In this document: piece by piece, positions 26,301 through 64,000 of the stretch
Layout: every line of letters starts with the position of its first letter
Numbering within the stretch: the stretch's first letter is position 1
IMG/VR virus record: IMGVR_UViG_2671181136_000006
DNA from: a virus
Lineage: Duplodnaviria; Heunggongvirae; Uroviricota; Caudoviricetes
Reading direction: 5' to 3' (one strand)
Length of the DNA stretch: 64,000 bases
Translations under genes and position numbers: made by a program
Notes under the pieces: model-generated
Database searches by the model: none
Told to the model about the DNA's origin: nothing
What the model saw: only the letters and a program-made list of their open reading frames with translations

Positions 26301-26315
26301 GAAGCCATGTTCATG

Positions 26316-26416
26316 TATGCTGTCAGCGGTAATTGATAGTCTGTCAGCGGTTCACCGTATGCTGCCAACTGTTTTTGGTATTCTGTCAGCGGCAAATCAA
26401 GTATGCTGTCAGCGGT
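26316..26416 (+). repeat. upstream iteron cluster (about 5 copies of TATGCTGTCAGCGGT and variants)
   Basis: copies at 26316, about 26337, about 26358 (partial), about 26389, 26402. Confidence 0.8.
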
Positions 26417-26436
26417 TGAATGACAAAGGTGTCCAC

Positions 26437-27531
26437 ATGTCCACAAAAAATAAAAAAGGTAAAAATAACAAAGAAGTAGAAGATAATCTCGACAACTTTG
26501 AAGAAGGTTCCCTTGAATTGTACACAGGGGAACTTGTCCCTAATAGCAACAATACAGTCCAACCAATTGCGTTGATGCGGCTGGGATTGTTCGTGCCCAC
26601 GCTCAAGGGGACAAAATACAGCAAGCGTAACAAGCCAAATGAGATCGATGCTTCAAAGGAGCTTGTTCAGCTCGAAGTAGCCCGTTCTGAAGGCTATTCC
26701 GATATCAAGATAACCGGTCCTCGTCTCGACATGGATCATGATTTCAAAACGTGGGTGGGCGTTGTGCGTTCGCTGGCAGAATACGGCGAACCTAACGGTC
26801 GTGTCGAGTTAAGCATCACGAAATTTGCGAAGTTTTGTGGCTATCCATCGTCACAGATCCGCAAAACACTCCGCGACCGGCTTACAAACAGTCTTTTGAA
26901 GATCATGCGTACAACTCTGTCTTTCCAGAGAACGTATGAAGAAAAGAACGTCGACGGCTCTAACAAGATCTCGCTTCTGATGGTGCACCTCATCAATAGC
27001 GTGGACTACAACGAGCAGAAAGATACGGTGGTGTTCTATGCAGAACCGAAGCTGGCCGAACTATATCGCTTTGACCATAAGGTTCTTTTGCAGTTAAAGG
27101 TTATCAATAAGCTACCACGCAAAGAAACAGCACAGGCTCTGTACACCTTCATCGAAAGTCTTCCAACCAAGCCTGCGCCGGTATCGCTTGCTCGATTGCG
27201 TGCGCGACTCAATTTGAGTAGCAGGAATGTCAGCTCGCAGAATCAGACTATACGCAACGGCTTAAAAGCTCTCCAAGATTTGGGCTATCTCGAATACAGC
27301 GAGATTAAGCGTGGGCGGTCGATCTATATCCAGATTCACAGCCGCAATCCAAAACTCAAAGTCGCACCGCCAAAACCTGAAGACATCGAACCCAAAAAAC
27401 TAGATGAGAAAGCTGGGGAAATTGATGCCAAACAGAACATTATCAACAAGATAACCGAACTTTCGCAGAATTTGACGCCTGAAAATATCAAGATGATTGA
27501 GATCCTTTCCAATAGTCTCAAACTGCTTTGA
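26437..27531 (+). CDS. repA: iteron-binding replication initiator (RepA/RepE-like)
   Basis: basic N-terminus, winged-helix-like pattern, flanked on both sides by 15-bp iterons; start set to ATG 26437 because the longer ORF runs through the iterons. Confidence 0.75.
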   Translation: MSTKNKKGKNNKEVEDNLDNFEEGSLELYTGELVPNSNNTVQPIALMRLGLFVPTLKGTKYSKRNKPNEIDASKELVQLEVARSEGYSDIKITGPRLDMDHDFKTWVGVVRSLAEYGEPNGRVELSITKFAKFCGYPSSQIRKTLRDRLTNSLLKIMRTTLSFQRTYEEKNVDGSNKISLLMVHLINSVDYNEQKDTVVFYAEPKLAELYRFDHKVLLQLKVINKLPRKETAQALYTFIESLPTKPAPVSLARLRARLNLSSRNVSSQNQTIRNGLKALQDLGYLEYSEIKRGRSIYIQIHSRNPKLKVAPPKPEDIEPKKLDEKAGEIDAKQNIINKITELSQNLTPENIKMIEILSNSLKLL

Positions 27532-28062
27532 TATGCTGTCAGCGGTGAAATGTATGCTATCAGCGGCTATTTTTCTGAAAAGTATGCTGTGAACGGTTAA
27601 AGATATGCTACCAGCGGTATAGTGAGATGAACGTATGCTGTGAGCGGTAAATCATCTATCACCACTCAATGCTCTGTCATACCTCCCCAGTGGTTACTAA
27701 CCTCGAAGAGTGCATTCCATATAGGTTTGCGCTCACTAACATTCTATTGCTATTGCGCTGATTGCTTGTAGTGAAAGGCATTTATTGCCTGCTACTCCCT
27801 GATAGAACGTATGCTGTCAGCGGTGTGTTATTGAGGAATTTTTGTTTGGATATGCTATCAGCGGTAATTAATGGTATATGTCAGACATTCGTATGCTGCC
27901 AGCGGTAATTTTGTTCTGGTTATACCCATACCGGGACACATTATTCATGCAATTTCTTAAGTATGCTGTCAGCGGTAAAAAATCGAGTAAAGTATGCTGT
28001 GAGCGGTGAGATAGACTCTCGATATGCTATCAGCGGTAGTTGATTGTGTATGCTGTCAGCGG
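27532..28062 (+). repeat. downstream iteron clusters (about 12 copies, two groups)
   Basis: TATGCT(G/A)(T/C)(C/G)A(G/A)CGGT at 27532, 27553, 27583, 27604, 27634, 27810, 27851, 27892, 27962, 27992, 28023, 28048; followed by GACTGCGGAACGTGCCGCAGTC hairpin. Confidence 0.8.
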
Positions 28063-28110
28063 TGACGACTATGAAATATGACTGCGGAACGTGCCGCAGT
28101 CAGTTTGCAT

Positions 28111-29630: not shown

Positions 29631-29691
29631 GTTTACTTCTCCTTATAAATAGGAAAATAATCACCTTTGAAAAAATAAAGCAAAGATATAT

Positions 29692-30081
29692 TCACTCCGA
29701 TACAAGACGTTTATATGCTTCGATGTCTCGACGTGCTTCACCGAGTTTTCTTCTTAGGTCCATATTTTCTGATTCAAGTTTTTCAATGTTTTTTTGGTAT
29801 CGGCCACGATGTTCTTCCCAGGCATCCTGATATGCCTTCATATATGTCGTATTAGCCTTTCTTTTTGCCTGACGAACCGCGTGGTGATTTTCTACAAACC
29901 AGTCAGGGTCGTTAAATGCTGCTCTTGCGCATTTATACCAATAATCGGTTGACTCTCTGTTTAACCAATGAATGGTGATAAATGGTAATCGAATAGACAG
30001 AATTTTTCGTTTGGAATCTCGCTCACCAAACATATGCCCTTTTTTTATCTTTAAACCGAACCCAGGTTGAATTAAAAGCAT
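29692..30081 (-). CDS. hypothetical protein
   Basis: 129-aa ORF. Confidence 0.35.
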   Translation of the reverse strand: MLLIQPGFGLKIKKGHMFGERDSKRKILSIRLPFITIHWLNRESTDYWYKCARAAFNDPDWFVENHHAVRQAKRKANTTYMKAYQDAWEEHRGRYQKNIEKLESENMDLRRKLGEARRDIEAYKRLVSE

Positions 30082-30101
30082 TGTCAGTACCTCAGATGCA
30101 T

Positions 30102-30842
30102 TTATGGCAGTAATTCTTTACCGCTTTCCATTTTGGTGATAGAGACAGTAGGATCATCGTTAATGCATGATTCTGTGCCTAATGCTGCTAACCCTTTACG
30201 CATAACCGTGCCCGCAACATACGCCTCAATCTCCGCCTTTCCAGATGAGACAATTTCATCCATTTGTTCCTGCATTAATTCGGTAGCAAAGCACAGATTT
30301 TCAGGAAGGTTAGCTACAGCAGATGCTAGTTTTCTATATAGTTCTTCAAGGTCACGTTTTCCAGCTCTTCCTTTTTTTACAAGTTCACCTAGCTCTGAAA
30401 CTTGCTGATTAAGTCGATCAATCTCACTATTCGTAGCGGCCTTTATTTGATCGTTGAATTTTTGCCGAATACTTTTTTGCTCGGCAATATCATGAACTCT
30501 AATTGAGTCTCCAATGGTTTTATATGAAATAGTGCATGGCACACCTTCGCCCACTCCAAAACTGCTAACCATAGCAGCCCATTGTGCCTGGCTAAGTCTA
30601 ATTTCAACTAAAGGCCGTCTATTGCAACTTCTTTGTGGGCGGGTTCGTTCATTGTCTAAGGACAGTTCCGCCTCGTAAACGCCTATTTCAATATAGTCTC
30701 TATGTTCCAGTTCTGAATCAAATAGGCGAATGCCAGTTGTGCTAACACGGCTTGTTTTCACAAGACCGAACGCTGGATGTGTTTGAATTTTTTCCCCATG
30801 TTTATTAAGGGTCGTTTTTGGTTCTTCAATTTTTCTTTTCAT
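30102..30842 (-). CDS. hypothetical protein
   Basis: 246-aa ORF. Confidence 0.4.
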   Translation of the reverse strand: MKRKIEEPKTTLNKHGEKIQTHPAFGLVKTSRVSTTGIRLFDSELEHRDYIEIGVYEAELSLDNERTRPQRSCNRRPLVEIRLSQAQWAAMVSSFGVGEGVPCTISYKTIGDSIRVHDIAEQKSIRQKFNDQIKAATNSEIDRLNQQVSELGELVKKGRAGKRDLEELYRKLASAVANLPENLCFATELMQEQMDEIVSSGKAEIEAYVAGTVMRKGLAALGTESCINDDPTVSITKMESGKELLP

Positions 30843-30888
30843 CTTATTAACCTCTATGCTTCATGCGTAAAGCTAAATGACAATTTTT

Positions 30889-31713
30889 TTAATATCCGGC
30901 GTATTCGTATTCTTCATTTAGACCGTATTCTTGTGGAGTGATACCAGGACAACATAACTCAAAGGCGAACTTGCGCCATTTGATTTTTTCTTCTGACGAT
31001 TGTTTGTTATTCGCCGGTGCAATGTAGTCATATTCCCATTTGCCGTTGCGAAGTAAAATGAATCCGCAGTTATTGCCGAAGTCTTCGTCTGCATAACGTA
31101 TTACAAACTCAAGGTGCGGGAACTTTCTAGCCATCGCTTGATAAATTGGTTTTGGCATAGACCAGGCTGTTTCAAAGCGAATCACCAACTCACCACCAGT
31201 TGCGGCATGTCTTGCAAGACGTTTTTTATAGATTCGTTTTGCATATGCTCGAACGTGTGTATGGCGGAAATTATGGCCGTACTTAATACGTGTAGGGATA
31301 CGTTTTACGGGCATTTCGATGTTGTAGGCATTCCATTTTGTTCCCCAATTAGCTCGCGACCAGTCAAACCATGAGTAATAGCCATAGCGACGATAATTCT
31401 CAAGCCGCATAAGAGCCTGCTCTTTGATTTTGCGAATTTCCTTGCGTGTCATTCCTGATTCACGCATAGCTAATTCGACCTGTTCTGGAGTCTTTAATTC
31501 ACCGAACATGTGGTCGTAAACTGTTTCGCCCGCCATTGCAGAGGCCATGCGCCTGATATGATTGTTTTCTTCCATTTCTATACTTTTCGGACGTCTGCAA
31601 ATGGTATTAAAGTCAATTAGACCTTTTTTGTTAGTTATGGCACGTATGAAATCTAAGCGTTGTTTATTTGTACCACCTATGACTCGGATTTCGTTTGTAA
31701 TGTGGTTGGGCAT
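30889..31713 (-). CDS. hypothetical protein
   Basis: 274 aa; W/Y-rich central motif WFDWSRANWGTKWNAY, family not recognised. Confidence 0.4.
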   Translation of the reverse strand: MPNHITNEIRVIGGTNKQRLDFIRAITNKKGLIDFNTICRRPKSIEMEENNHIRRMASAMAGETVYDHMFGELKTPEQVELAMRESGMTRKEIRKIKEQALMRLENYRRYGYYSWFDWSRANWGTKWNAYNIEMPVKRIPTRIKYGHNFRHTHVRAYAKRIYKKRLARHAATGGELVIRFETAWSMPKPIYQAMARKFPHLEFVIRYADEDFGNNCGFILLRNGKWEYDYIAPANNKQSSEEKIKWRKFAFELCCPGITPQEYGLNEEYEYAGY

Positions 31714-31764
31714 AATTAACTTAACCTTTTAACAAATTGTTTTCTTGTGTGTGATAATAACGAG

Positions 31765-36428: not shown

Positions 36429-36860
36429 TCAACGGGGAGTAATAAAGCGTTCAGAGCCTAATCGCTCTAATTCAACGATGGCCATCTTTGACGCCTGAAC
36501 GATCATGTCTCGGCGATGCGAAAAGGCGGCGACAGCATGTTTGTATATGTCTGCGATGTGCCGTGCTTCATCCAACTTCTGCCTTTTAGACAGATACTGT
36601 GGGTTTGTTTTAACCTTAGCGTCCAGTACAGATTCGTTGAACTTAATGCCGTTCATACTCAAGTTCTTACGCTCTGTGTCGTATAGCTTTGCTTCAACAG
36701 CTTCAAGGTTAAGTTTTGCCTCTGCGACACTTCTTTCTGCATGAGCGAGTTTTGAGCCATACTCCATTAAAAGGCGGGGTTGTCTGCGCCAGACTTCCTC
36801 CAGATTGTCTCGGTCAAACTCGAGATCAGACATTATTTTCTCGTAAATATCGGTGAACAT
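36429..36860 (-). CDS. hypothetical protein
   Basis: 143-aa ORF. Confidence 0.4.
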   Translation of the reverse strand: MFTDIYEKIMSDLEFDRDNLEEVWRRQPRLLMEYGSKLAHAERSVAEAKLNLEAVEAKLYDTERKNLSMNGIKFNESVLDAKVKTNPQYLSKRQKLDEARHIADIYKHAVAAFSHRRDMIVQASKMAIVELERLGSERFITPR

Positions 36861-36954
36861 GTGCTTTCCTTTTTACTTATCATCTTATATTGATTATATC
36901 ATTGTGATGATAAGGCAAGGAGTTCGAGGATAGGGGATATGAGGGGATAAGAGA

Positions 36955-36982
36955 AAACATGGCCATAGAGGCCATGTTTATT
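36955..36982 (-). terminator. rho-independent terminator
   Basis: CATGGCCATAGAGGCCATG hairpin with T-run on minus strand. Confidence 0.5.
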
Positions 36983-36985
36983 GGA

Positions 36986-39900
36986 TCACGACTTAATAGT
37001 TTCTGCTACGTCGGCTAATATCGCTTCTAGTCGTTCTCCCTCTTCAGGTCTGAAGTAAAGAATGTTGGGGTTAAACCCGTAAAAGACAGTAACGTCAAGG
37101 TCTGGAAGATACTCCTTCCTGCCGACCAAATCGGATGGCTTGTTTTTGTTGTTAAACAATGAAGTTGCCCGGCTGCCACACGTCAGCACATAGGTCGGAC
37201 GCACCAGATTGATCTCTTCACGCATAAAGTCGGTGAACTGGCCGATCTCGTCTTTGGTGTAGTCTTTTTCTTTGTCTTTAACCTTCTTGCAAACACCTGT
37301 GACATAGAGATCGCCCATGCGTAAATCTCCAGCCGTCAATAGCTTGGCCTTAAAGTCGTCGTATCCGTTCTCCATAAAGTAACCGGTTCGAGCATCATTG
37401 CCGTTCGCATTGTCCAGAATGATCATGATTTTCGGCTTAATACCAATGCTGGGGCGGATTAGTTCATCACCTAAGCCCATTTCAGCCGCCATCCGCGTCA
37501 TGAGTACGTTAATCTCAGCCGAACGTTTGGGGTTCATCTCAAACGGACGTGAGGCTTTAACTGCGTCTATGACAAGGTTTCCCATCAATTCAGCCTGGTC
37601 GCGTAGGCGCTCTGGATCAGTTGCTGGCAGACTACCTGGCTCGATGGATGCAAACGCCCCTACTTTTTGCAGCGATTCGCGCACTCGACTATTACAGGCA
37701 CGTTTCTCGACAGCTTCTTCGAATTGCGCCAGTGACTCGAATTTGCCGCCAACTTTTTCTCGCGCTCTCATGATGGCTTGGCAGCCATTCTCAGAACACC
37801 CTTTCACAGCAGAGAAGGGCGCATACAGCACCTGGCTGCCATCTTCAAGCGTGCGGATCTCGATTCGGTTAGATGACACGTTAACGTCTGGTGGCAATAC
37901 GCGAATACCATAGGTCAGCGCATCTTTAACCAGCCCCTGGTGTTTATCTTCGCCAAGAATAGTGAGAGCAGCAGCGAAAAACTCTGCGGGATAATGAGTT
38001 TTCAACCACATAGATTGATAACTGATTAAGGAGTAAGCAACAGAGTGTGATTTGTTGAACTGGTAGGCACCATTCTTTTCGAATGCGGTCCAGATCTCCT
38101 TCGCTTTCATCTCTGATAGCCCTGGATGTGACGCTGTAACGCGTACTGCGTTTATAGGTAGTTTTGCGCCGTACTCAAGTGCCTCTTCGACAGTTTTCAG
38201 TGTTCCGTCTTCGCATTTAAAATGTTCCGCACGGTGAATGCGCTGTGTAGTGCCATCTTCCAGCTCAACGTCTATCCAGCCAGCTTGAGCCTGAACGATG
38301 AACTTCTCACCCATGCTCTTCATTTTCTCCATGTCTTTTTTGCCGATCGCTTTACGAACGCCGTCAGCTTCAGCCATTGTGAAGCCAGCAAGCAATCGAG
38401 TCGCGTTCATCGTCTGTTCCTGATAAAGAATCACGCCATTTGTTTCTGCGGTAAGTTCATCAAGAACGGGGTGTAATGATTCCGGCGTCATAAAGCCTTT
38501 GGCGACAGAAACATAATCATCCAACATGCCTGACTGAATTGGCCCCGGCCGGAAGAGCGCAGTCGTAGCAACAACCGTTTTAAAGCTCATTGGCTCAATT
38601 CCACCACCTAAATCTTTAAGCAGCTTGCGCATTGGGCCTGATTCAAGCTGGAAAACACCTTGAGTGTACCCAGCAGCAAAACCATCCAGCACCTTGCGAT
38701 CTTCAAGAGAAATGGCATCAAGATTGATATCTTCACCTGTGTTCTCTTTTATGTAGCGTTTTGCACTATCGAGCAAATCGAGAGTTGCCAGACCGAGTAC
38801 GTCCAGCTTAATTAGGCCCATAGCCTCGCAGTAACGCTTGTCAAATGCGATACAACGCGCGTCACCACGGCGTTCAACCGGTGTACGTTCTGTCAGAGGA
38901 ACACCTGCTACGATCATCCCTGCCGCATGTCTACCAAAGCCACGCATAAGGCTTTGTAACTTGCAGGCTGCATTGAATGCATCAGGATATTTTGTTGCGT
39001 ATTTGTCGAGACTTGCCAGTTGTTCGCGCAGCTCCTCCAATGGAAGGCTATCATCCTCGACGTTCTTCAGCTCTTTTGATACCGCCATATCTGCGGACTC
39101 CACACCATAAATACGAGCGGTATCACGTAGTGCAGAGGCTGCGCCCAGGTAGGTGAAGTTCGGAATGCCTGCAACGTAATCTTCGCCGTAGCGTTCATTC
39201 AGATACTCGATCACCTCATGGCGACGTGCCTGGCTGAAGTCCAAGTCCGCATCCGGCAAGTCGAGACGCTCAGGGTTGATGAAACGCTCAAACAGAAGAC
39301 CGTGACGGATTGGGTCGACGTTGGTTATGCCTATGCACCACGCCACCAGAGAACCGGCAGAGGAACCACGACCAGGCCCAACGGGAATGCCAGTTTCACG
39401 ACTATGATTCATCAGATCGCGCACCATCAGGAAGTAACCACAGAATCCCAGGCGAGTCAGCGTGTCCATTTCGTACTTTAGCCGCTCAACATAAACCCTG
39501 TTCTCAGAAGCAGGTGGTGTGTATCCAAACTCTTTTGTGGTAAGACGTTTACGCAGCCCTGCAACAGCCAGTTTCATCAGCGTTGCAGGCTCGTCGTCTG
39601 CCATCTTTGGCAGTGCTGGCGGCAATTCATGCCAGCGCCATGTGCAGGCATCGATAATGGTATCCTGCGTTGTTGAGGCCATTGCAGCTGTTACCGGCAC
39701 ATCCATGCGAACGGAGAAGGCTTTAAGCGCCTCAAGGAGATGGCGGCGACCATTGACGGCGTTATCTCGCTGGTGGGGGATACGCAGACGATGCGGCTGG
39801 TCGATTTTGATGTTGTTCGTAACCATGTGCGCAATGTCTTTAATGTCTGCATCGTCGATCGATTCGTAATAAGCGGGATAGAACGCCACTGGCTCTATTT

Positions 39901-55641: not shown

Positions 55642-56391
55642 TTAATTAGATAGGGGATCAATAAACCGCCGTGCTTCTTCCAGTTCTTCTGGAAAGTGGG
55701 CGGAAATAAGGCGCTCTGGAACGATTTCCATTAGCCAGATAGCGGAGAAAATTGCGCGTATGCGCTTGCTGCGAGGGATGGTGCGCAAACGCTCCAGAAT
55801 CCACTCAAAATAGCTTTCCTGAATCGGGTTGAACTGCATGTCTCCCATATGCTTAAAGCTAACCAGAGAGTCATCCAGACGGGTTGTTGCGCGTCTGGCT
55901 AATTTCTCTTCAAATATCTCAATCAGTTCTGGCTGCCATAAATGCTGTGGGCGCGGCAGCTTGTCCCACAGCCGTCGTGCAGCTGCGGAAAGAACGGTGG
56001 AGATAAAGTAGTCGTATGAGCAGCAATAGCGGTCAGCAAACTGGCGTGCTTTCCATAGAGACGTTTTATTGGCAGTCGACAACTCCTGATAAGGCAGGCG
56101 TTTTAACCCGGTGGTGAACGGAGCTGTTTCAAAGTGTTCGCGACCGTGCGTCAGCATGATATTTGAGTACTGACGTTTGTATGCCTCCGTAAACAGACAG
56201 GTGGCCATAAGAGGATGCATGTCGCGGTAATCAAACCACTTCGTCTCGAAGAGTTCAGCCTCATCTTTACAGCGCGACAAACCAATGTTTTCAGCGACCC
56301 ACTTGTCCATAACAGCGGTATTCCACTCTGTCATGAAGTCGTACTGGTCGTTGTCGATGGTATCGAAAAAGATTTGGCTCATGTGGCTCAC
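55642..56391 (-). CDS. hypothetical protein
   Basis: 249-aa ORF. Confidence 0.4.
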   Translation of the reverse strand: MSHMSQIFFDTIDNDQYDFMTEWNTAVMDKWVAENIGLSRCKDEAELFETKWFDYRDMHPLMATCLFTEAYKRQYSNIMLTHGREHFETAPFTTGLKRLPYQELSTANKTSLWKARQFADRYCCSYDYFISTVLSAAARRLWDKLPRPQHLWQPELIEIFEEKLARRATTRLDDSLVSFKHMGDMQFNPIQESYFEWILERLRTIPRSKRIRAIFSAIWLMEIVPERLISAHFPEELEEARRFIDPLSN

Positions 56392-56555: not shown

Positions 56556-56656
56556 TAATGGATACCAAGAACAACATAATTTGACTCCAACCCCAGATGC
56601 TATGTCATTGACAGATTTATCAAGGGAGATCATGTTAGAATCAGTGTTTTAGCCTC

Positions 56657-57730
56657 GTGGATATTGTCACCATGCGCATGAATAGACTTCCAGGATATGG
56701 CCTTCCCGAACTGGCTTTTTGGCCTCAGCCTAAATATGAACGGAATAAATGGTCGATGTTCTGTCTGAAACTCCGTAATGATGGAACCCTTGCTTGGTAT
56801 CGGCGATATGTTGATCGTGGTATGCCAAACCACGCTTTTGATGACGACTACGATAACTATCCTGAAGCAAGAAAAGCGGCATTAGAGCTGAATAAAAACG
56901 TGAGCTTTGACATTGAAAAACTTCCTCTATCTATGTTTCAAAAGAAGTCATTGCGTTTGAAAGTTGACAAAGCACTCAAAGCCAAATCACGTCTCATGGA
57001 TGAAGAGCATATAATGCTCAACGAAGCAATTAAGGCACACGCCAACGATCCGCGAGTGACATTAAATGAGTTAATAATTAACCCAGATTACGAAACTTTG
57101 CGTCAACCCCTTTTTGACGTGCTAAGCGAGATGCCTTACTTACATTTTGTTTTTCTTCCCAAATTCCAAGTTTCACTTCAACTCGTTGCTCCTAACACTT
57201 GGGAATGTTCATATAACAACAAAGCTAAGACAGCGAAGATCTGCTACCAAGAACGCATAGCCAGAGGTTTTGGTTTATCAGGTGCTGCACATTGGGGAAA
57301 AACAAAAGCGACTATTCGCTCAATGCTTCTGCCGCGTGCTAACCGGTTACTGCAACTCGCCAGCGTAAAAAGAATGCTGGATGAAGCTCTCAGGAATGGG
57401 CAAAAGGTACTGGTTGTTGGCAACTTTGTTTTCTGGTTTGAGGACAAAAATCAGGTAGGTTGGAGTGTTAAAGTTGCTAGCGAAAGCGAAACCACCTCAA
57501 GAGGCAATACGCTCTGGAAAGAAGGAACTATCATTTCAAAAAATCACGGTCGAATTGTCGTGCTGCCGTATACAAAAGAAAACGGTAAACATGTAAAAGG
57601 TTATACCAAGAATGCCCCTAACGACGGCAACGCAATTCCGAGACATAAGGATGAGTATGTCGAGTTGCCCTTTGAAATTTTGGATGGTGACTTGATGTTC
57701 AGTCTGTTCGGTGAGCTTAACTACGAATAG
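56657..57730 (+). CDS. hypothetical protein
   Basis: 357-aa ORF. Confidence 0.4.
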   Translation: MDIVTMRMNRLPGYGLPELAFWPQPKYERNKWSMFCLKLRNDGTLAWYRRYVDRGMPNHAFDDDYDNYPEARKAALELNKNVSFDIEKLPLSMFQKKSLRLKVDKALKAKSRLMDEEHIMLNEAIKAHANDPRVTLNELIINPDYETLRQPLFDVLSEMPYLHFVFLPKFQVSLQLVAPNTWECSYNNKAKTAKICYQERIARGFGLSGAAHWGKTKATIRSMLLPRANRLLQLASVKRMLDEALRNGQKVLVVGNFVFWFEDKNQVGWSVKVASESETTSRGNTLWKEGTIISKNHGRIVVLPYTKENGKHVKGYTKNAPNDGNAIPRHKDEYVELPFEILDGDLMFSLFGELNYE

Positions 57731-57790
57731 CTTTCATAGAACGAAATATTTCTAAGGCTGTCCAATGCAGACCAGCCTTAGAGATTTATA

Positions 57791-58818: not shown

Positions 58819-59136
58819 TGGAGAGTTCCCTTTGCGTATATAATTATCGTCTGAAACAACTTGTTTTCTTATATGTGATATAGCCTAAATGCCTACGGCT
58901 GCGGTGTAAAGGTTAAATGGTAGGTTGTGATTAACAATTGGCAAACATAGCTTGTATTTGTCTGTTGAAAAAAGTAACAATGACCTCTATATTACAAGTA
59001 CGGTGATATGCCGTACACAATTTGATAATGCACACGTAATGGGCTATAGCCTTTTAAAGTAATTTTTGAGTCGAAAACTCAGTTTGAACAGAGGAGATTG
59101 ATGGCCTTCCTACATCACGGCCATCAGGAGGAATAC

Positions 59137-59406
59137 ATGTCAGCACTAAAAAAGCAGCGCATCGATTTGAGATTAACCGATGACGATAAAAGCATCATCG
59201 AGGAAGCTGCCGCAATGTCTAACCAGAGCATTACTCAGTTTATGGTTAGCAGTGCATCTGAACGTGCCGTGAAAGTTATAGAGCAACACCGTAGACTAGT
59301 TCTGAATGAAGAATCCTGGAATCTGGTTATGGACGCTATAAGCAATCCTCCGGCACCGAACGACAAGCTGAAACGAGCTGCTGATCGTCTGAAAAGCATG
59401 GAGTAG
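59137..59406 (+). CDS. ataR: RHH antitoxin of GNAT-toxin TA pair (AtaR/TacA-like, DUF1778)
   Basis: MSALKKQRIDLRLTDDDKSIIEEAA... closely resembles AtaR as recalled; AGGAGG SD 7 nt upstream of ATG 59137. Confidence 0.85.
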   Translation: MSALKKQRIDLRLTDDDKSIIEEAAAMSNQSITQFMVSSASERAVKVIEQHRRLVLNEESWNLVMDAISNPPAPNDKLKRAADRLKSME

Positions 59407-59413
59407 TTTACTC

Positions 59414-59935
59414 GTGGATAATATAAAGATAGAAATTTTCTCTGGAGAGAAAGATTATGATTTGAATGGTTTTGATTGCGGTGAAGAATCACTAAATGCC
59501 TTTTTAACCAACCACTTAAAAAGGCAGCATGAGGGAAAAATTCTTCGCGCTTATGTGCTTTGCACGAAAGAAGGCAGACCAAAAGTGTTAGGGTATTACA
59601 CTTTGTCAGGTAGCTGCTTTGAAAAGGAGTCCTTACCTTCAAGAAGCCAGCAAAAGAAGGTACCTTATCGGAATGTTCCAAGTGTTACTTTGGGTAGGCT
59701 GGCTTTGGACAAGTCCCTTCAAGGTCAAGGATTTGGCTCAATGCTTGTAACACATGCAATGCGCGTTGTGTACAATGCATCTCTTGCTGTAGGCATTCAT
59801 GGACTTTTCGTTGAGGCGTTAAATGACAAAGCCAAGGCGTTTTATAAAAGTTTAGACTTTATCCAGCTGGTTGGTAACAACGAGCGTTCTTTGTTCTATC
59901 CTACAAAATCTATCGAAAAATTGTTCGAAGAATAA
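59414..59935 (+). CDS. ataT: GNAT acetyltransferase toxin (AtaT/TacT-like)
   Basis: FDCGEE..N.FL..H, LGYYTL.GSCFE, SVTLGRLA.D.SLQGQG, GIHGLFVEALN.KA..FYKSL.F motifs near-collinear with AtaT as recalled; GTG start 8 bp after antitoxin stop. Confidence 0.9.
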   Translation: MDNIKIEIFSGEKDYDLNGFDCGEESLNAFLTNHLKRQHEGKILRAYVLCTKEGRPKVLGYYTLSGSCFEKESLPSRSQQKKVPYRNVPSVTLGRLALDKSLQGQGFGSMLVTHAMRVVYNASLAVGIHGLFVEALNDKAKAFYKSLDFIQLVGNNERSLFYPTKSIEKLFEE

Positions 59936-59966
59936 TGTACTCCCCTCAAGTGAGGGGAACTTCGCA

Positions 59967-60182
59967 TCACCAACCGCAAACTCTCTCTCCCATCGTATTG
60001 TGAAAAAGGATTTGGCGTTCGGTTTCTTCGGTCATCACATCATTATTGCTGATATAGATAGGCCCAGCTCCATCGCAGAACAATACGCTGGCGGTTTGTG
60101 GTTTAATGACGCACCCACTTATCATACAACTCACGATGAACGGCAGAAGCATCTTTCTGACGTATTTTATTGCTCGTCTCAT
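59967..60182 (-). CDS. o-spanin-like outer-membrane lipoprotein (Rz1-like)
   Basis: lipobox ...CMISGC, short Pro-containing periplasmic domain; overlaps 3' end of i-spanin ORF in another frame. Confidence 0.5.
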   Translation of the reverse strand: MRRAIKYVRKMLLPFIVSCMISGCVIKPQTASVLFCDGAGPIYISNNDVMTEETERQILFHNTMGERVCGW

Positions 60183-60354
60183 TCACCACTTCCACTGTGC
60201 TTTGAAGTCGTTTTCTGTCTTCCTGTTTTGCCTTCTCTTCCATTGCTCGTCGCGCCGCATTCCCGCCCATCGTGTAAGCGCCGACAAGAACGAAAAGAAC
60301 GGCAGCCAGCGTAATCAAAGCAACTTTTAGCTTTGTCATCAGGCTGCCTAGCAT
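60103..60354 (-). CDS. i-spanin-like protein (Rz-like)
   Basis: N-terminal TM helix followed by charged coiled-coil region; overlapped by o-spanin candidate. Confidence 0.5.
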   Translation of the reverse strand: MLGSLMTKLKVALITLAAVLFVLVGAYTMGGNAARRAMEEKAKQEDRKRLQSTVEVVNETSNKIRQKDASAVHRELYDKWVRH

Positions 60355-60355
60355 A

Positions 60356-60781
60356 TTAGACCATCCCTTTCTGGTGTTTTCTTACCTGCGACCAGGCAAT
60401 GAATCCTGCCACAACAATAGTGGCAATACCGAAGATGATGCGTACTGTATCCCCGCTAGAGATATGACCTTGTGCTTTATCCATAGCAGCGGAAACCTGC
60501 GGCATAACATCGGCCAGCTGCGCCAGACCAATACCTGCTGTAACAGTTGCGCCTGCGGTTTCTTTAGTTACAGGAACAGCCTTCACGGTTTTCACCGGCT
60601 TAACAACGCCAGCTCGACGCAGACCTTCCTCAATAACTTCTACCGCATACCAGGTGTTCAGCGTTTTTAGCGGGCCTCGGCCATTCTCGTGGCGAATGAT
60701 TGCCTCAACCAAAGGTCGAAGGATGTCGTAATCATGCAGATCGATGATCATGTCTGCGGTTACACCAACGGCTTTAGACAC
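60356..60781 (-). CDS. lysis-cassette protein with C-terminal TM segment, possibly N-terminally truncated by transposon insertion
   Basis: GTG start at 60781 sits 9 bp from the transposon IR; frame stays open 14 codons into the IR before a stop. Confidence 0.3.
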   Translation of the reverse strand: MSKAVGVTADMIIDLHDYDILRPLVEAIIRHENGRGPLKTLNTWYAVEVIEEGLRRAGVVKPVKTVKAVPVTKETAGATVTAGIGLAQLADVMPQVSAAMDKAQGHISSGDTVRIIFGIATIVVAGFIAWSQVRKHQKGMV

Positions 60782-60790
60782 CTCATTAAT

Positions 60791-60828
60791 GGGGGAACCG
60801 CAGAATTCGGAAAAAATCGTACGCTAAG
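60791..60828. repeat. Tn1721-type 38-bp terminal inverted repeat
   Basis: GGGGGAACCGCAGAATTCGGAAAAAATCGTACGCTAAG, near-identical to the Tn1721 IR as recalled. Confidence 0.85.
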
Positions 60829-60979
60829 CTAACGGTGTTCTCGTGACAGCTCTTTGACTAGGCTTTCTAAGGCCATTCTGATAGCCCTGACTTCCTGAAA
60901 AGCCATGGCTAAAATTTGTGCGGCTAAAAGGGATAACCGATGGTAAAGTAAGTTATCCCTGTCGAGATACTGAAAAGCG

Positions 60980-62557
60980 TTATCCTCGTTTTTCCCAAAA
61001 CTGTTTTGCCAGTTCGCTCAGAGCGCTAGTTAACTGAGCGACAGATTTCGCACTTTGCAAATTATTCTGCCCGGTCTGTACATTGGTATCAGCAGCATCG
61101 CGTATATTGATAATACTGCGGTTTATGTCTTCACTTACTGCTCCCTGCTGCTCGACCGCAGTCGCTATTTGCGCGTTCATGTCGGTAATTTCGTTAACGC
61201 GTTGGCCAATTCCATCAAGAGCTGTAGCTGCTTCCTCTGCGTGAGCTACACTCGTGTGCGCTTGCCGACTACTTTGCTCCATGACTGTAACAGCGGATTG
61301 CGCTCGCTCTTGTAGAGCGCTGATCATGCTTTGAATATCCGTTGTCGATTGCTGTGTGCGAGCAGCAAGACTGCGAACCTCATCGGCGACAACAGCAAAA
61401 CCACGCCCCTGCTCACCAGCACGCGCGGCCTCAATTGCTGCGTTGAGTGCCAACAAATTCGTTTGCTCGGCGATCCCTCGTATAACGTCAAGAACTTTTG
61501 ATATCTCGTTACTTTGACCTTCAAGCTCATGAATAACCTGAGTGGCTTGCCTAATTTCACCTTCAAGGGCAGTGATTGACTGGCTTGTGTGGGCTACCAG
61601 ACGCTGGCCAGATGCCGTCTCAGTGTCTGCTCTTCCGGCCGCATCTGCAGCATGCTGTGCATTGCTCGCAACCTCTTGAATGCTTGCCACCATTTGGTTT
61701 ACTGCCGTTGCTATTTGATCTGTCTCTGCCTGCTGCTCAACTGTAAGTACATTGCTTGACTCAATATCCTTTAGTAGGCCTCGGGTGTGTTCGCTAAGCC
61801 GATTTGATGCATCACCTATGCGACCTACTATGGCGCCTGTTTCAGCTTGCATCATTCGTAAAGCAAACTCTATTTGGCCAAACTCATCGGTGCGCCCAGT
61901 GTAGAGGGATTGACTTAATGGGTTATTGGAAATATTCCTGGCTCTTTCAACCAGTCTTCCAAGAGGAGAGAGAATAGCCAAAACACTAACAGAGCTTAAG
62001 CTTCCTGACATTAAAGTGGCTAACAATAAGCTGCTTATTGATGTATCAGTAAGCATGCCGGCAGCCATTGCGCTTGATATAATACTACCCCATATGAGCA
62101 AGAGTATTTTCACGGAAAAGCTAGCAGCCAATTTCGGCCTCGCGGCCTTCCCGCTTCTCAATTGAGCATATAATTTTTCCGCAGCCAAAACCTGCTCAGG
62201 TTCAGGCTTGGTCCTTACAGACTGGTATTCAACAATCGAACCATTCTTAGCTATTGGCGTTACATAAGCACTTACCCAATAGTGGTCGCCATTTTTACAG
62301 CGATTTTTTACTAGCCCCATCCATGAGCGGCCAGATTTTAATGTACTCCACATATGCTCAAATGCAGCAGGCGGCATATCTGGGTGTCTTACGATGTTGT
62401 GAGGCTGGCCTAATAGTTCTTCCTCAGTGAAACCACTGATTTTAATGAAGTCAGGATTAACGTACGTGATATGGCTTTGAGGGGAGGTAGTCGAAAGAAT
62501 ATTGGCATCTTTTGGGAGTTCTAAGTTTCGACCCGTCACTGGTAAATTCTGGCGCAT
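60980..62557 (-). CDS. methyl-accepting chemotaxis-like protein with N-terminal PAS domain (Tn1721 orfI-like passenger)
   Basis: Aer-like PAS N-terminus, TM region, highly conserved MCP signalling motif [37 protein letters not shown]. Confidence 0.85.
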
Positions 62558-62866
62558 AAGAACCTCAAGGGTTGGCTGTTTTATTTTATTGTTTTCGGCA
62601 TTAAGCCCAATTTCTTGAGCGTTACGATAAAGCTAGCATGGAAACGATAGGTGCAAGCAAGTTAAGGGTTGCATCGCGCATGTCAATCTAGGCTATACCC
62701 TAACTTGATGTCAGGCAGGGCCGCGCCGCTTCGTCAGAATAGAGTCTGCTTTCCCATTTTTTGACACATGCCCGCGAAGGTTATAGATTTCAGCCTGACA
62801 GAAATGGGCTTTGAGGCACAACGGAACAGAAAGTGCACTTAAGCCGCCTTCAACCAAGGAGACATC
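62558..62866. promoter_or_regulatory. res site / divergent promoter region
   Basis: between divergent orfI and tnpR; contains TGTCAGGC / GCCTGACAG inverted subsite-like repeats. Confidence 0.5.
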
Positions 62867-63427
62867 GTGCAGGGGCACCGCATCGGCTACGTCCGGGTCA
62901 GCAGCTTTGACCAGAACCCGGAACGCCAGCTGGAACAAACCCAGGTGAGCAAGGTGTTCACCGACAAGGCATCGGGCAAGGACACCCAGCGCCCCCAGCT
63001 CGAAGCGCTGCTGAGCTTCGTCCGCGAAGGCGATACAGTGGTGGTGCACAGCATGGATCGGCTGGCCCGCAACCTCGATGACCTGCGTCGCTTGGTACAG
63101 AAGCTGACTCAGCGCGGCGTGCGCATCGAGTTCCTGAAGGAGGGCCTGGTGTTCACTGGCGAGGACTCGCCGATGGCCAACCTGATGCTGTCGGTGATGG
63201 GGGCCTTCGCTGAGTTCGAGCGCGCCCTGATCCGCGAGCGGCAGCGTGAGGGCATCGCCTTGGCCAAGCAGCGTGGCGCGTACCGGGGCCGCAAGAAAGC
63301 CCTGTCCGATGAGCAGGCTGCTACCCTGCGGCAGCGAGCGACGGCCGGCGAGCCCAAGGCGCAGCTTGCCCGCGAGTTCAACATCAGCCGGGAAACCCTC
63401 TACCAGTACCTCCGCACGGACGACTGA
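62867..63427 (+). CDS. tnpR: serine resolvase TnpR
   Basis: IGYVRVSSFDQNPERQ with catalytic Ser, C-terminal HTH; near-identical to Tn21/Tn1721-subgroup resolvases as recalled; GTG start. Confidence 0.95.
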   Translation: MQGHRIGYVRVSSFDQNPERQLEQTQVSKVFTDKASGKDTQRPQLEALLSFVREGDTVVVHSMDRLARNLDDLRRLVQKLTQRGVRIEFLKEGLVFTGEDSPMANLMLSVMGAFAEFERALIRERQREGIALAKQRGAYRGRKKALSDEQAATLRQRATAGEPKAQLAREFNISRETLYQYLRTDD

Positions 63428-63430
63428 CAC

Positions 63431-64000
63431 ATGCCGCGTCGCTTGATCCTCTCGGCCACGGAGCGGGACACCCTGCTTGCGCTGCCGGAAAGCCAGGATG
63501 ACCTGATCCGCTACTACACCTTCAACGACTCCGACCTGTCGCTGATCCGCCAGCGACGCGGCGACGCCAACCGCCTCGGCTTCGCCGTGCAGCTCTGCCT
63601 GCTGCGCTACCCCGGTTACGCGCTGGGAACCGACAGCGAGCTGCCCGAGCCGGTCATCCTGTGGGTGGCGAAGCAAGTCCAGGCCGAGCCGGCGAGCTGG
63701 GCAAAGTACGGCGAGCGCGACGTGACCCGTCGCGAGCATGCCCAGGAACTGCGCACCTACCTGCAACTGGCCCCGTTCGGCCTGTCCGACTTCCGCGCCC
63801 TGGTGCGCGAGCTAACCGAGCTGGCCCAGCAGACCGACAAAGGCTTGCTGCTGGCCGGTCAGGCCCTGGAGAGCCTACGGCAGAAACGACGCATCCTGCC
63901 GGCGCTGAGCGTGATTGACCGGGCCTGCTCGGAAGCCATTGCGCGAGCCAATCGGCGGGGCTACCGCGCCCTGGTCGAACCACTCACGGACTCGCATCGG
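63431..64000 (+). CDS. tnpA: Tn3-family transposase TnpA, N-terminal part (truncated by window end)
   Basis: [44 protein letters not shown]... matches N-terminus of Tn21-subgroup TnpA as recalled; ATG 4 bp after tnpR stop. Confidence 0.9.

What the first reader, a model, noticed from the sequence alone, without database searches (positions are those of the whole stretch)
60356..60828. Tn1721-like transposon end abuts the first ORF of the lysis cassette
The 38-bp transposon IR starts 9 bp from the GTG start of the ORF immediately upstream of the overlapped Rz/Rz1-like spanin pair. The ORF's frame stays open into the IR and stops inside it, so the gene may have lost its N-terminus and promoter. 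If this gene is the endolysin or holin, the element could be lysis-defective and effectively locked into the plasmid lifestyle while carrying the transposon.
Basis: partly seen in the sequence, partly recalled or inferred. Interest (0 to 1): 0.65.

Follow-up and report, generated by a model that had tools for sequence, protein, structure and literature searches.

The report
Transposon splits a phage-plasmid endolysin gene
A Tn1721-type transposon has inserted inside the cell-wall-digesting (endolysin) gene of an E. coli phage-plasmid, leaving a dead 3' remnant, so the element probably cannot burst its host unaided; this is an ordinary kind of event in an unusual place.

Summary
A 38-bp Tn1721 left inverted repeat lies at 60791-60828, 9 bp from the GTG (60781) of a 141-codon minus-strand ORF. 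The ORF's frame runs into the repeat and stops there.

The ORF is the 3' remnant (codons 87-230) of a 230-residue endolysin, not an intact gene. Transposon-free relatives (phage Cyrano, phage CMS-2020a, hundreds of about 109-kb plasmids) carry holin-endolysin-Rz-Rz1. Their homology to the window stops exactly at the repeat.

The endolysin is of the Enc34 type (PDB 7Q47), with a catalytic domain followed by a C-terminal membrane anchor. The break falls after Tyr86, inside helix 4. Lost are helices 1-3, all 15 invariant residues, and the Trp and Tyr equivalents implicated in catalysis. The catalytic Glu, the linker and the anchor remain.

The holin, the 5' gene half and the far transposon end are not in the window, because the source contig ends in tnpA. 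The TTAAT target duplication is therefore predicted, not seen.

None of 219 complete E. coli genomes with this gene has it interrupted. Loss of lysis is inferred, not tested. This is a new instance of a known kind of event, of modest interest.

The parts
59939..59960 (.). GC-rich hairpin between the convergent GNAT toxin gene and Rz1. It is the likely terminator of the lysis transcript.
   Evidence: It is the only terminator-like site on the minus strand downstream of the remnant and spanin genes.
59967..60182 (-). Rz1-like o-spanin gene (71 codons, lipobox ISGC). It overlaps Rz by 80 nt in another frame.
   Evidence: PHROG 1275 'Rz-like spanin', E = 2.3e-24. ORF listed. Cyrano annotates an Rz1 spanin at this position.
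60103..60354 (-). Rz-like i-spanin gene (83 codons, N-terminal membrane helix). It keeps its own AAGGGA ribosome-binding site.
   Evidence: PHROG 1026 'Rz-like spanin', E = 9e-25. Upstream sequence shown. Cyrano annotates it as Rz spanin.
60356..60790 (-). 3' remnant of the endolysin gene: codons 87-230 plus the stop. It holds the C-terminal two-thirds of helix 4, helix 5 with the catalytic Glu (E121 of the intact protein), helix 6, the linker and the C-terminal membrane anchor (about residues 205-223). It is a pseudogene. The listed ORFs start at GTG 60781 or ATG 60751, and neither has a usable ribosome-binding site.
   Evidence: Homology to the intact 230-residue endolysins of Cyrano and CMS-2020a runs to 60790/60791 and stops there. 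The remnant differs from Cyrano residues 87-230 only by A136V. PHROG 873 'endolysin', E = 1.6e-34. Helix boundaries come from the AlphaFold model.
60786..60790 (.). TTAAT, the predicted 5-bp target-site duplication (only this copy is visible).
   Evidence: These are the five bases next to the outer end of the repeat. Intact relatives read ...CATTAAT|GTAGGCG... at this point. The second copy lies beyond the contig end, so it has not been seen.
60791..60828 (+). 38-bp left terminal inverted repeat of Tn1721/Tn1722.
60980..62557 (-). Tn1721 orfI, a PAS-HAMP methyl-accepting chemotaxis-like protein (525 codons). It is transcribed toward the repeat and the endolysin remnant.
   Evidence: Pfam MCPsignal at 7e-44, plus PAS_3 and HAMP. 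100% identical to Tn1721 copies. No terminator-like site on the minus strand between its stop codon and the remnant.
62558..62866 (.). Intergenic region between orfI and tnpR. It is the presumed res site and holds divergent promoter-like hexamers.
   Evidence: Promoter-like sites at 62714-62685 (-) and 62761-62789 (+). The res assignment rests on the known layout of Tn1721 and was not tested.
62867..63427 (+). tnpR resolvase gene (186 codons).
   Evidence: Pfam Resolvase at 3e-39 and HTH_7 at 6e-14.
63431..64000 (+). First 190 codons of tnpA, cut off by the end of the window, which is also the end of the source contig.
   Evidence: Pfam DUF4158 at 5e-55. The contig ends at this base.

Best explanation
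A Tn1721/Tn1722-type Tn3-family transposon inserted into the endolysin gene of an SSU5-supergroup phage-plasmid of about 108 kb in Escherichia coli. The insertion lies between codons 86 and 87.

The intact cassette in relatives is holin, then endolysin (230 residues, Enc34 type: catalytic domain plus C-terminal membrane anchor), then Rz, then Rz1. The insertion splits it. The window holds only the distal part: the endolysin remnant (residues 87-230), Rz and Rz1. The holin and the first 86 endolysin codons must lie beyond the transposon, outside the window.

The remnant lacks helices 1-3 and the first turn of helix 4. It lacks every invariant residue of the family, and it lacks the equivalents of the Trp and Tyr residues implicated in catalysis. 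It also has no ribosome-binding site. It therefore cannot be an active muramidase.

Inferred consequences: on induction the element can still replicate, assemble particles and probably kill the cell through its holin. It cannot degrade the cell wall, and the spanins cannot act without that step, so virions stay trapped. The element is then inherited only vertically as a plasmid, helped by its ParA partition gene, its TacA/TacT-type toxin-antitoxin pair and whatever selectable trait the transposon carries.

Shown: the insertion, the gene's identity, and what is missing. Inferred: the target duplication, the intactness of the far side, and the phenotype.
For: Junction and frame.

Relatives without the transposon:
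- They are 98-99% identical up to 60790/60791 and then continue with the rest of the endolysin gene, the holin and the tail-fibre gene.
- None of that continuing sequence is in the window.

Gene identity:
- PHROG 873 endolysin at 3e-88.
- PDB 7Q47, the Enc34 endolysin catalytic domain, at 7e-54.
- An AlphaFold model of a 92%-identical homologue has pLDDT 91 and matches 7Q47 at TM 0.91.

What is lost:
- The model's helices span residues 5-8, 39-56, 68-75, 83-94, 107-122 and 136-145, so the break after residue 86 falls in helix 4.
- In a 56-sequence alignment, all 15 invariant columns and 15 of 22 nearly invariant columns lie in residues 1-86.
- Enc34 Trp79, Tyr95 and Glu131 (PMC8943055) map to W75, Y86 and E121 by the alignment. 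Only E121 is kept.

Experimental background: in the related endolysin M4Lys, neither the catalytic domain alone nor the membrane anchor alone lyses cells, and the anchor alone is only bacteriostatic (PMC7143992).

Transposon identity.

Backbone: the window is collinear with phage Cyrano at 92-98% identity over most of the window, with a few diverged or replaced segments. Cyrano's annotation lists a single endolysin among its 126 features.

Contig arithmetic: 111,398 minus 3,210 transposon bases leaves 108,188 bp. That equals a full-length relative (107.6-109.3 kb), which argues for a simple insertion without a large deletion.
Against: - The second transposon end, the second TTAAT copy, the holin and the 5' gene half were not seen. 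The draft contig ends 570 bp into tnpA.
- The predicted N-terminal fragment with a read-through tail (...DAYIKGSPQNSEKIVR) was not found in the protein collection in ten variants.
- No experiment bears on lysis.
- E. coli strains usually carry other prophages whose endolysins could act in trans.
- Other peptidoglycan hydrolases on the element were excluded only through Cyrano's annotation, not by a full scan.
- The strain could also hold an intact copy of the element. A draft assembly would not show that.
Confidence: 0.85

Rival explanations
1. The gene is broken as described, but the element still lyses and spreads. Release would be rescued in trans by the endolysin of a co-induced chromosomal prophage, or by another hydrolase on the element.
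For: Nothing in the window argues against it. The rest of the window is collinear with a deposited phage genome, so particle production is plausible. Several SSU5-like elements that carry resistance genes do yield particles after mitomycin C (PMC9600943).
Against: Cyrano's annotation lists only one endolysin. The same paper reports one E. coli SSU5-like element that gave no particle DNA, so inactive elements exist (PMC9600943). Rescue would depend on the host strain and would be lost on transfer.
Confidence: 0.15
2. This was not a simple insertion. The transposon end marks a larger rearrangement, such as an adjacent deletion, an IS26-type or one-ended event, or a cointegrate. In that case the holin or structural genes may also be missing or displaced.
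For: Only one junction is visible. The contig breaks inside tnpA, which means the distal transposon sequence is repeated elsewhere in the genome. Tn1721 copies truncated by IS26 are common (L003 and L004).
Against: The contig holds 108,188 bp of backbone, the size of complete relatives, which leaves no room for a large deletion. The window end shows no IS terminus. The junction lies exactly at the outer base of the repeat, in an AT-rich pentamer, as in normal Tn3-family transposition.
Confidence: 0.1
3. The junction is an assembly artefact. In the cell the endolysin gene is intact and the transposon sits elsewhere.
For: The source is a short-read draft whose contig ends in a repeated element. 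No other public record has this junction.
Against: A misjoin needs shared sequence, and the endolysin gene and the transposon share none beyond a single G. The break falls precisely at the first base of the 38-bp repeat, as a real insertion would give.
Confidence: 0.03
4. The ORF is an intact small gene that starts at the GTG, and the transposon landed in intergenic DNA.
For: None beyond the presence of a GTG.
Against: All relatives read through this GTG as Val90 of a 230-residue protein. In 218 of 219 complete E. coli genomes the full gene is a single uninterrupted stretch; the one exception is cut by the start of its record. No ribosome-binding site precedes the GTG.
Confidence: 0.01

Closest known systems
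Tn1721 / Tn1722 (Tn3-family transposon; PGAP labels its transposase 'TnAs1 family')
   Same: Same 38-bp left repeat, orfI (mcp-like), tnpR and start of tnpA. The sequence is 100% identical over 3,210 bp to copies in pFBAOT6 and many enterobacterial plasmids.
   Different: Only the left 3.2 kb is visible. It cannot be told whether this is the 5.6-kb Tn1722 core, the 11-kb tet(A)-bearing Tn1721 or a truncated derivative. The target here is a conserved phage gene.
Enc34 ORF39 endolysin (PDB 7Q47, family PHA02564) and Salmonella phage BSPM4 M4Lys
   Same: The intact relatives have the same layout: an N-terminal all-helical catalytic domain, a linker and a C-terminal membrane anchor, encoded between a holin and overlapped spanins. 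E = 7e-54 to 7Q47, 59% identity in the structural alignment, TM 0.91 (PMC8943055, PMC7143992).
   Different: The window's copy is only the last 144 residues. It lacks helices 1-3 and the Trp and Tyr equivalents, so it is a remnant and not a functional family member.
SSU5 / pHCM2-supergroup phage-plasmids (phage Cyrano OV696614.1, phage CMS-2020a CP054387.1, E. coli O104:H4 plasmid NC_018651.1)
   Same: Collinear backbone, 92-98% identical over most of the window, with the same ParA gene, the same GNAT toxin-antitoxin pair and the same lysis cassette. All 220 matching places in complete E. coli genomes are on plasmids.
   Different: Those relatives have an uninterrupted cassette. Published surveys report resistance elements inserted in one locus, or avoiding conserved phage genes (PMC9600943; bioRxiv 10.1101/2025.09.12.675607). 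This one hits a conserved lysis gene.
Endolysin-null phage mutants such as lambda R- (textbook knowledge, not tested here)
   Same: The expected phenotype is the same: the holin kills the cell, but no lysis follows and particles stay inside.
   Different: Here the cause is a natural transposon insertion, and the endolysin is of a membrane-anchored type whose export route is not settled.

Membership tests
Tn1721/Tn1722 transposon | 38-bp terminal inverted repeat at the element's end | tested here: met
   60791-60828 is identical to the left repeat in L003, L004 and L008.
Tn1721/Tn1722 transposon | orfI (mcp-like), res, tnpR and tnpA in that order inward from the left repeat | tested here: met
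   Pfam domains and 100% identity over 3,210 bp to Tn1721 copies. tnpA is visible only for its first 190 codons. The res assignment is by position only.
Tn1721/Tn1722 transposon | Second inverted repeat and a 5-bp direct target duplication | not testable with these tools
   The window and the source contig end inside tnpA. No second repeat is present in the window. Prediction...CCGAATTCTGCGGGCTCCCC-TTAAT-GTAGGCGTCAG.
Tn1721/Tn1722 transposon | tetR-tet(A) module, which distinguishes Tn1721 from Tn1722 | not testable with these tools
   It would lie beyond the contig end.
Enc34-type (PHA02564) endolysin with C-terminal membrane anchor | Complete six-helix catalytic domain homologous to 7Q47 | tested here: not met
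   The intact relatives meet it. The window's copy starts at residue 87, inside helix 4, so helices 1-3 are absent.
Enc34-type (PHA02564) endolysin with C-terminal membrane anchor | Catalytic Glu (Enc34 Glu131) together with the Trp79 and Tyr95 equivalents | tested here: not met
   E121 is present in IIRHENG. W75 and Y86 are on the missing part (alignment; PMC8943055).
Enc34-type (PHA02564) endolysin with C-terminal membrane anchor | C-terminal transmembrane segment | tested here: met
   A hydropathy peak above 2.0 lies at residues 205-223 (IIFGIATIVVAGFIAWSQV), with a weaker one at 165-190.
Two-component spanin, overlapped architecture | An i-spanin with an N-terminal membrane helix and an o-spanin with a lipobox, the two genes overlapping in different frames | tested here: met
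   PHROG 1026 and 1275. The sequence shows KVALITLAAVLFVLVGAY and the lipobox ISGC. The genes overlap by 80 nt.
SSU5-supergroup phage-plasmid | A backbone of about 108 kb carrying both phage and plasmid functions and kept extrachromosomally | tested here: met
   The window is collinear with phage Cyrano. A ParA gene is present. All 220 matching places in complete E. coli genomes are on plasmids. The structural genes lie outside the window.
SSU5-supergroup phage-plasmid | A complete, functional lysis cassette | tested here: not met
   The endolysin is split, and the holin and the 5' gene half are not in the window.

The most novel reading that the evidence does not exclude
The insertion may have created a new transcription unit. 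Tn1721 orfI is transcribed toward the left repeat, and no terminator-like site separates it from the remnant. Read-out could therefore express the spanin pair constitutively and, if internal initiation occurs, a membrane-anchored endolysin fragment of the kind that is bacteriostatic in M4Lys. That would give the host a membrane-active or phage-exclusion trait rather than just a dead gene.
Probability: 0.05. Interest if true: 0.45.

Novelty: new member of a known kind. Interest (0 to 1): 0.3.

Why it matters
Phage-plasmids are increasingly seen as carriers of resistance genes that can spread by infection. Published surveys report that resistance elements sit in a few permissive loci and avoid conserved phage genes. 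This window shows a counter-example: a single transposon hit in the only annotated endolysin gene of an otherwise collinear, full-length element.

If the phenotype is as inferred, this is a one-step conversion of an infectious element into a vertically inherited plasmid. It could still kill its host on induction. It is a clean natural case for testing how phage-plasmids turn into plasmids, and whether Enc34-type endolysins are essential for release.

It reveals no new mechanism or gene family.

Tried and rejected
**Search for the same junction elsewhere.** No record covers it. Searches were megablast of 60500-61100 against plasmids and complete E. coli genomes and an exact 32-mer scan of viral contigs and species-representative genomes.

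**Apparent flank matches.** Some BLAST hits extended up to 23 bases beyond the repeat. These proved to be chance similarity of AT-rich target sites in unrelated plasmids.

**Search for the far end of the transposon.**
- The 141-residue product is not on record.
- The 131-residue product led to the source contig, which ends in tnpA.
- A search with the predicted N-terminal fragment plus repeat-encoded tail returned only ordinary partial endolysins.
- Exact look-ups of ten predicted variants failed.
- Cluster listings did not show a fragment from the source assembly.
- The two relatives' holin sequences each occur on at least 1000 contigs and so are uninformative.

**Pfam.** It has no model for this endolysin family; only sub-threshold noise appeared.

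**Rejected readings.** An intact small gene starting at the GTG, and a translational fusion with a transposon gene. In-frame stops separate orfI from the remnant, and the open stretch inside the repeat has no start codon.

Full report
**1. The observation**

The window carries GGGGGAACCGCAGAATTCGGAAAAAATCGTACGCTAAG at 60791-60828. This is the only such site on either strand, and no shuffle of the window produced one. The same 38 bases form the left end of Tn1721-type elements in three unrelated plasmids.

The minus-strand ORF at 60356-60781 begins with GTG at 60781, 9 bases from the repeat. Its frame stays open for 14 more codons and closes at a TAG at 60826-60824, inside the repeat.

Downstream on the same strand lie an Rz-like gene (60103-60354) and an Rz1-like gene (59967-60182). 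They overlap by 80 nt and both match PHROG spanin families.

**2. What the ORF is**

Megablast of 59900-60790 against phage records found four close relatives. Phage Cyrano (OV696614.1) annotates this region as holin, endolysin, Rz spanin, Rz1 spanin.

- Alignment of Cyrano and of phage CMS-2020a to the window runs at 98-99% identity up to window position 60790/60791 and stops there.
- The relatives continue with GTAGGCGTCAG..., the rest of the endolysin gene, the holin and the tail-fibre gene. None of this occurs anywhere in the window.
- The intact protein has 230 residues. The window keeps residues 87-230, which differ from Cyrano only by A136V.
- The GTG is simply Val90. No ribosome-binding site precedes it, nor the ATG at 60751 that the source annotation used.

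The ORF is therefore a 3' remnant, and it belongs to the second gene of the cassette, not the first.

**3. The protein family and what was lost**

Pfam has no model for this protein. Other evidence identifies it.

- PHROG 873 'endolysin' matches the intact protein at 3e-88.
- The PDB search finds 7Q47, the catalytic domain of the Hafnia phage Enc34 endolysin, at 7e-54.
- An AlphaFold model of a 92%-identical homologue, built on a 56-sequence alignment, has pLDDT 91. It superposes on 7Q47 with TM 0.91.

The published structure is all-helical, and the full-length protein has a C-terminal membrane domain. Glu131 is proposed as the catalytic residue, and Trp79 and Tyr95 are conserved and implicated in catalysis (PMC8943055). 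By the alignment these map to E121, W75 and Y86 of the E. coli protein.

The model's helices span residues 5-8, 39-56, 68-75, 83-94, 107-122 and 136-145. The break after residue 86 therefore lies in helix 4.

| Lost | Kept |
|---|---|
| Helices 1-3 and the first turn of helix 4 | Rest of helix 4, helix 5, helix 6 |
| The RGIRNNNPGN motif | The catalytic Glu, E121 |
| W75 and Y86 | The linker |
| All 15 invariant and 15 of 22 nearly invariant alignment columns | The membrane anchor at about 205-223 |

In the related endolysin M4Lys, the catalytic domain without the anchor does not lyse cells. The anchor alone is only bacteriostatic (PMC7143992). A fragment with less than half of the catalytic domain cannot be expected to work.

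**4. The transposon**

Positions 60791-64000 are 100% identical to Tn1721 copies in many plasmids. They encode the PAS-HAMP-MCP orfI (minus strand), the resolvase and the first 190 codons of the transposase.

The five bases outside the repeat are TTAAT. For a Tn3-family element this predicts a TTAAT duplication at the other end. The right repeat of the family, GGGGAGCCCGCAG..., was verified in pFBAOT6.

**5. The limit of the evidence**

The 131-residue call of the remnant exists on a single public contig, CYBD01000014.1 of the E. coli assembly GCA_001285985.1 (protein CTT49369.1). The contig is 111,398 bp long, and the window is its last 64 kb. The contig ends 570 bp into tnpA. The far end of the transposon, its cargo, the 5' endolysin half and the holin are therefore not visible.

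Subtracting the 3,210 transposon bases leaves 108,188 bp, the size of complete relatives (107.6-109.3 kb). This argues for a simple insertion into a full-length element. It remains an argument from length only. All attempts to reach the other junction failed.

**6. How unusual it is**

- Of 694 PLSDB plasmids holding this lysis cassette, 634 carry it as one uninterrupted stretch, and only one record shows two places.
- Of 219 complete E. coli genomes with this endolysin gene, 218 have it whole. The exception is merely cut by the start of its record. All copies are on plasmids.
- One survey states that resistance insertions in SSU5-like elements concentrate in a single locus (PMC9600943).
- Another states that such elements insert 'while avoiding conserved phage genes' (bioRxiv 10.1101/2025.09.12.675607).
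- No record in the collections searched has this junction.

**7. Mechanism and rivals**

The best-supported reading is replicative insertion of a Tn1721-type element into codon 86/87. This separates the holin and the 5' half from the 3' half and the spanins.

The inferred phenotype is that of an endolysin-null phage: death without lysis on induction, trapped particles, and vertical inheritance as a plasmid only. The ParA gene and the TacA/TacT-type toxin-antitoxin pair next to the cassette would favour retention.

The main rival concerns only the phenotype, namely rescue by another prophage's endolysin. A rearrangement larger than a simple insertion, and a misassembly, are less likely for the reasons given under each rival.

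One speculative point deserves a test. orfI is transcribed toward the remnant, and no terminator-like site lies between them. The first such site is the hairpin at 59960-59939, after Rz1. The spanins may therefore now be transcribed from the transposon. By established knowledge of spanin function this would be harmless while the cell wall is intact.

**8. Verdict**

The event is an ordinary kind (a transposon insertion creating a pseudogene) at an unusual target. It is of modest interest as a natural example of a phage-plasmid losing its exit route.

Noticed in passing
window 59098-59935: A TacA-like antitoxin (Pfam TacA1, 9e-26) and a GNAT acetyltransferase toxin (annotated KacT in Cyrano) sit convergent to the lysis cassette. 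They appear to share the hairpin at 59939-59960 as terminator.
   Followed up: partly
window 56560-57788: A 357-codon plus-strand ORF with no Pfam match occupies a variable slot between the 249-codon ORF (55642-56391) and the parA operon. Cyrano has an unrelated 804-bp hypothetical gene (CYRAN_30) there, and CMS-2020a has a different 1.75-kb segment.
   Followed up: partly
window 26304-28110, 29639-31719 and 36840-38314: These stretches have no match or only a weak match (84%) to phage Cyrano, within an otherwise 92-98% collinear backbone. The first corresponds to Cyrano's RepA region, which suggests a different replicon allele. The second is about 2 kb of extra DNA.
   Followed up: no
window 60768-60790; L003 2973-3024; L004 1464-1515: Three independent Tn1721 left-end junctions have similar AT-rich flanks (...CTCATTAAT...CTACTTAAT...CTAATCAAT). 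The similarity was enough for BLAST to extend its alignments 14-23 bases beyond the repeat. This could be chance or a target-site preference.
   Followed up: partly
window 64000 (end of source contig CYBD01000014.1): The draft contig stops 570 bp into tnpA with no IS terminus at the break. This implies that the distal part of the transposon is present more than once in the E. coli genome.
   Followed up: no
proteins P0068 and P0004 (public assemblies, not the window): Other damaged alleles of the same endolysin exist in public data. One diverges after residue 42 and ends at 55 residues. Another is frameshifted near residue 68. Independent inactivation of this gene may therefore not be unique to this strain.
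   Followed up: no
window 62711-63766 (minus strand): A 351-codon ORF lies antisense to tnpR and the start of tnpA, and the source record also calls a gene there. It lies in the GC-rich transposon sequence and is most likely a spurious call.
   Followed up: no
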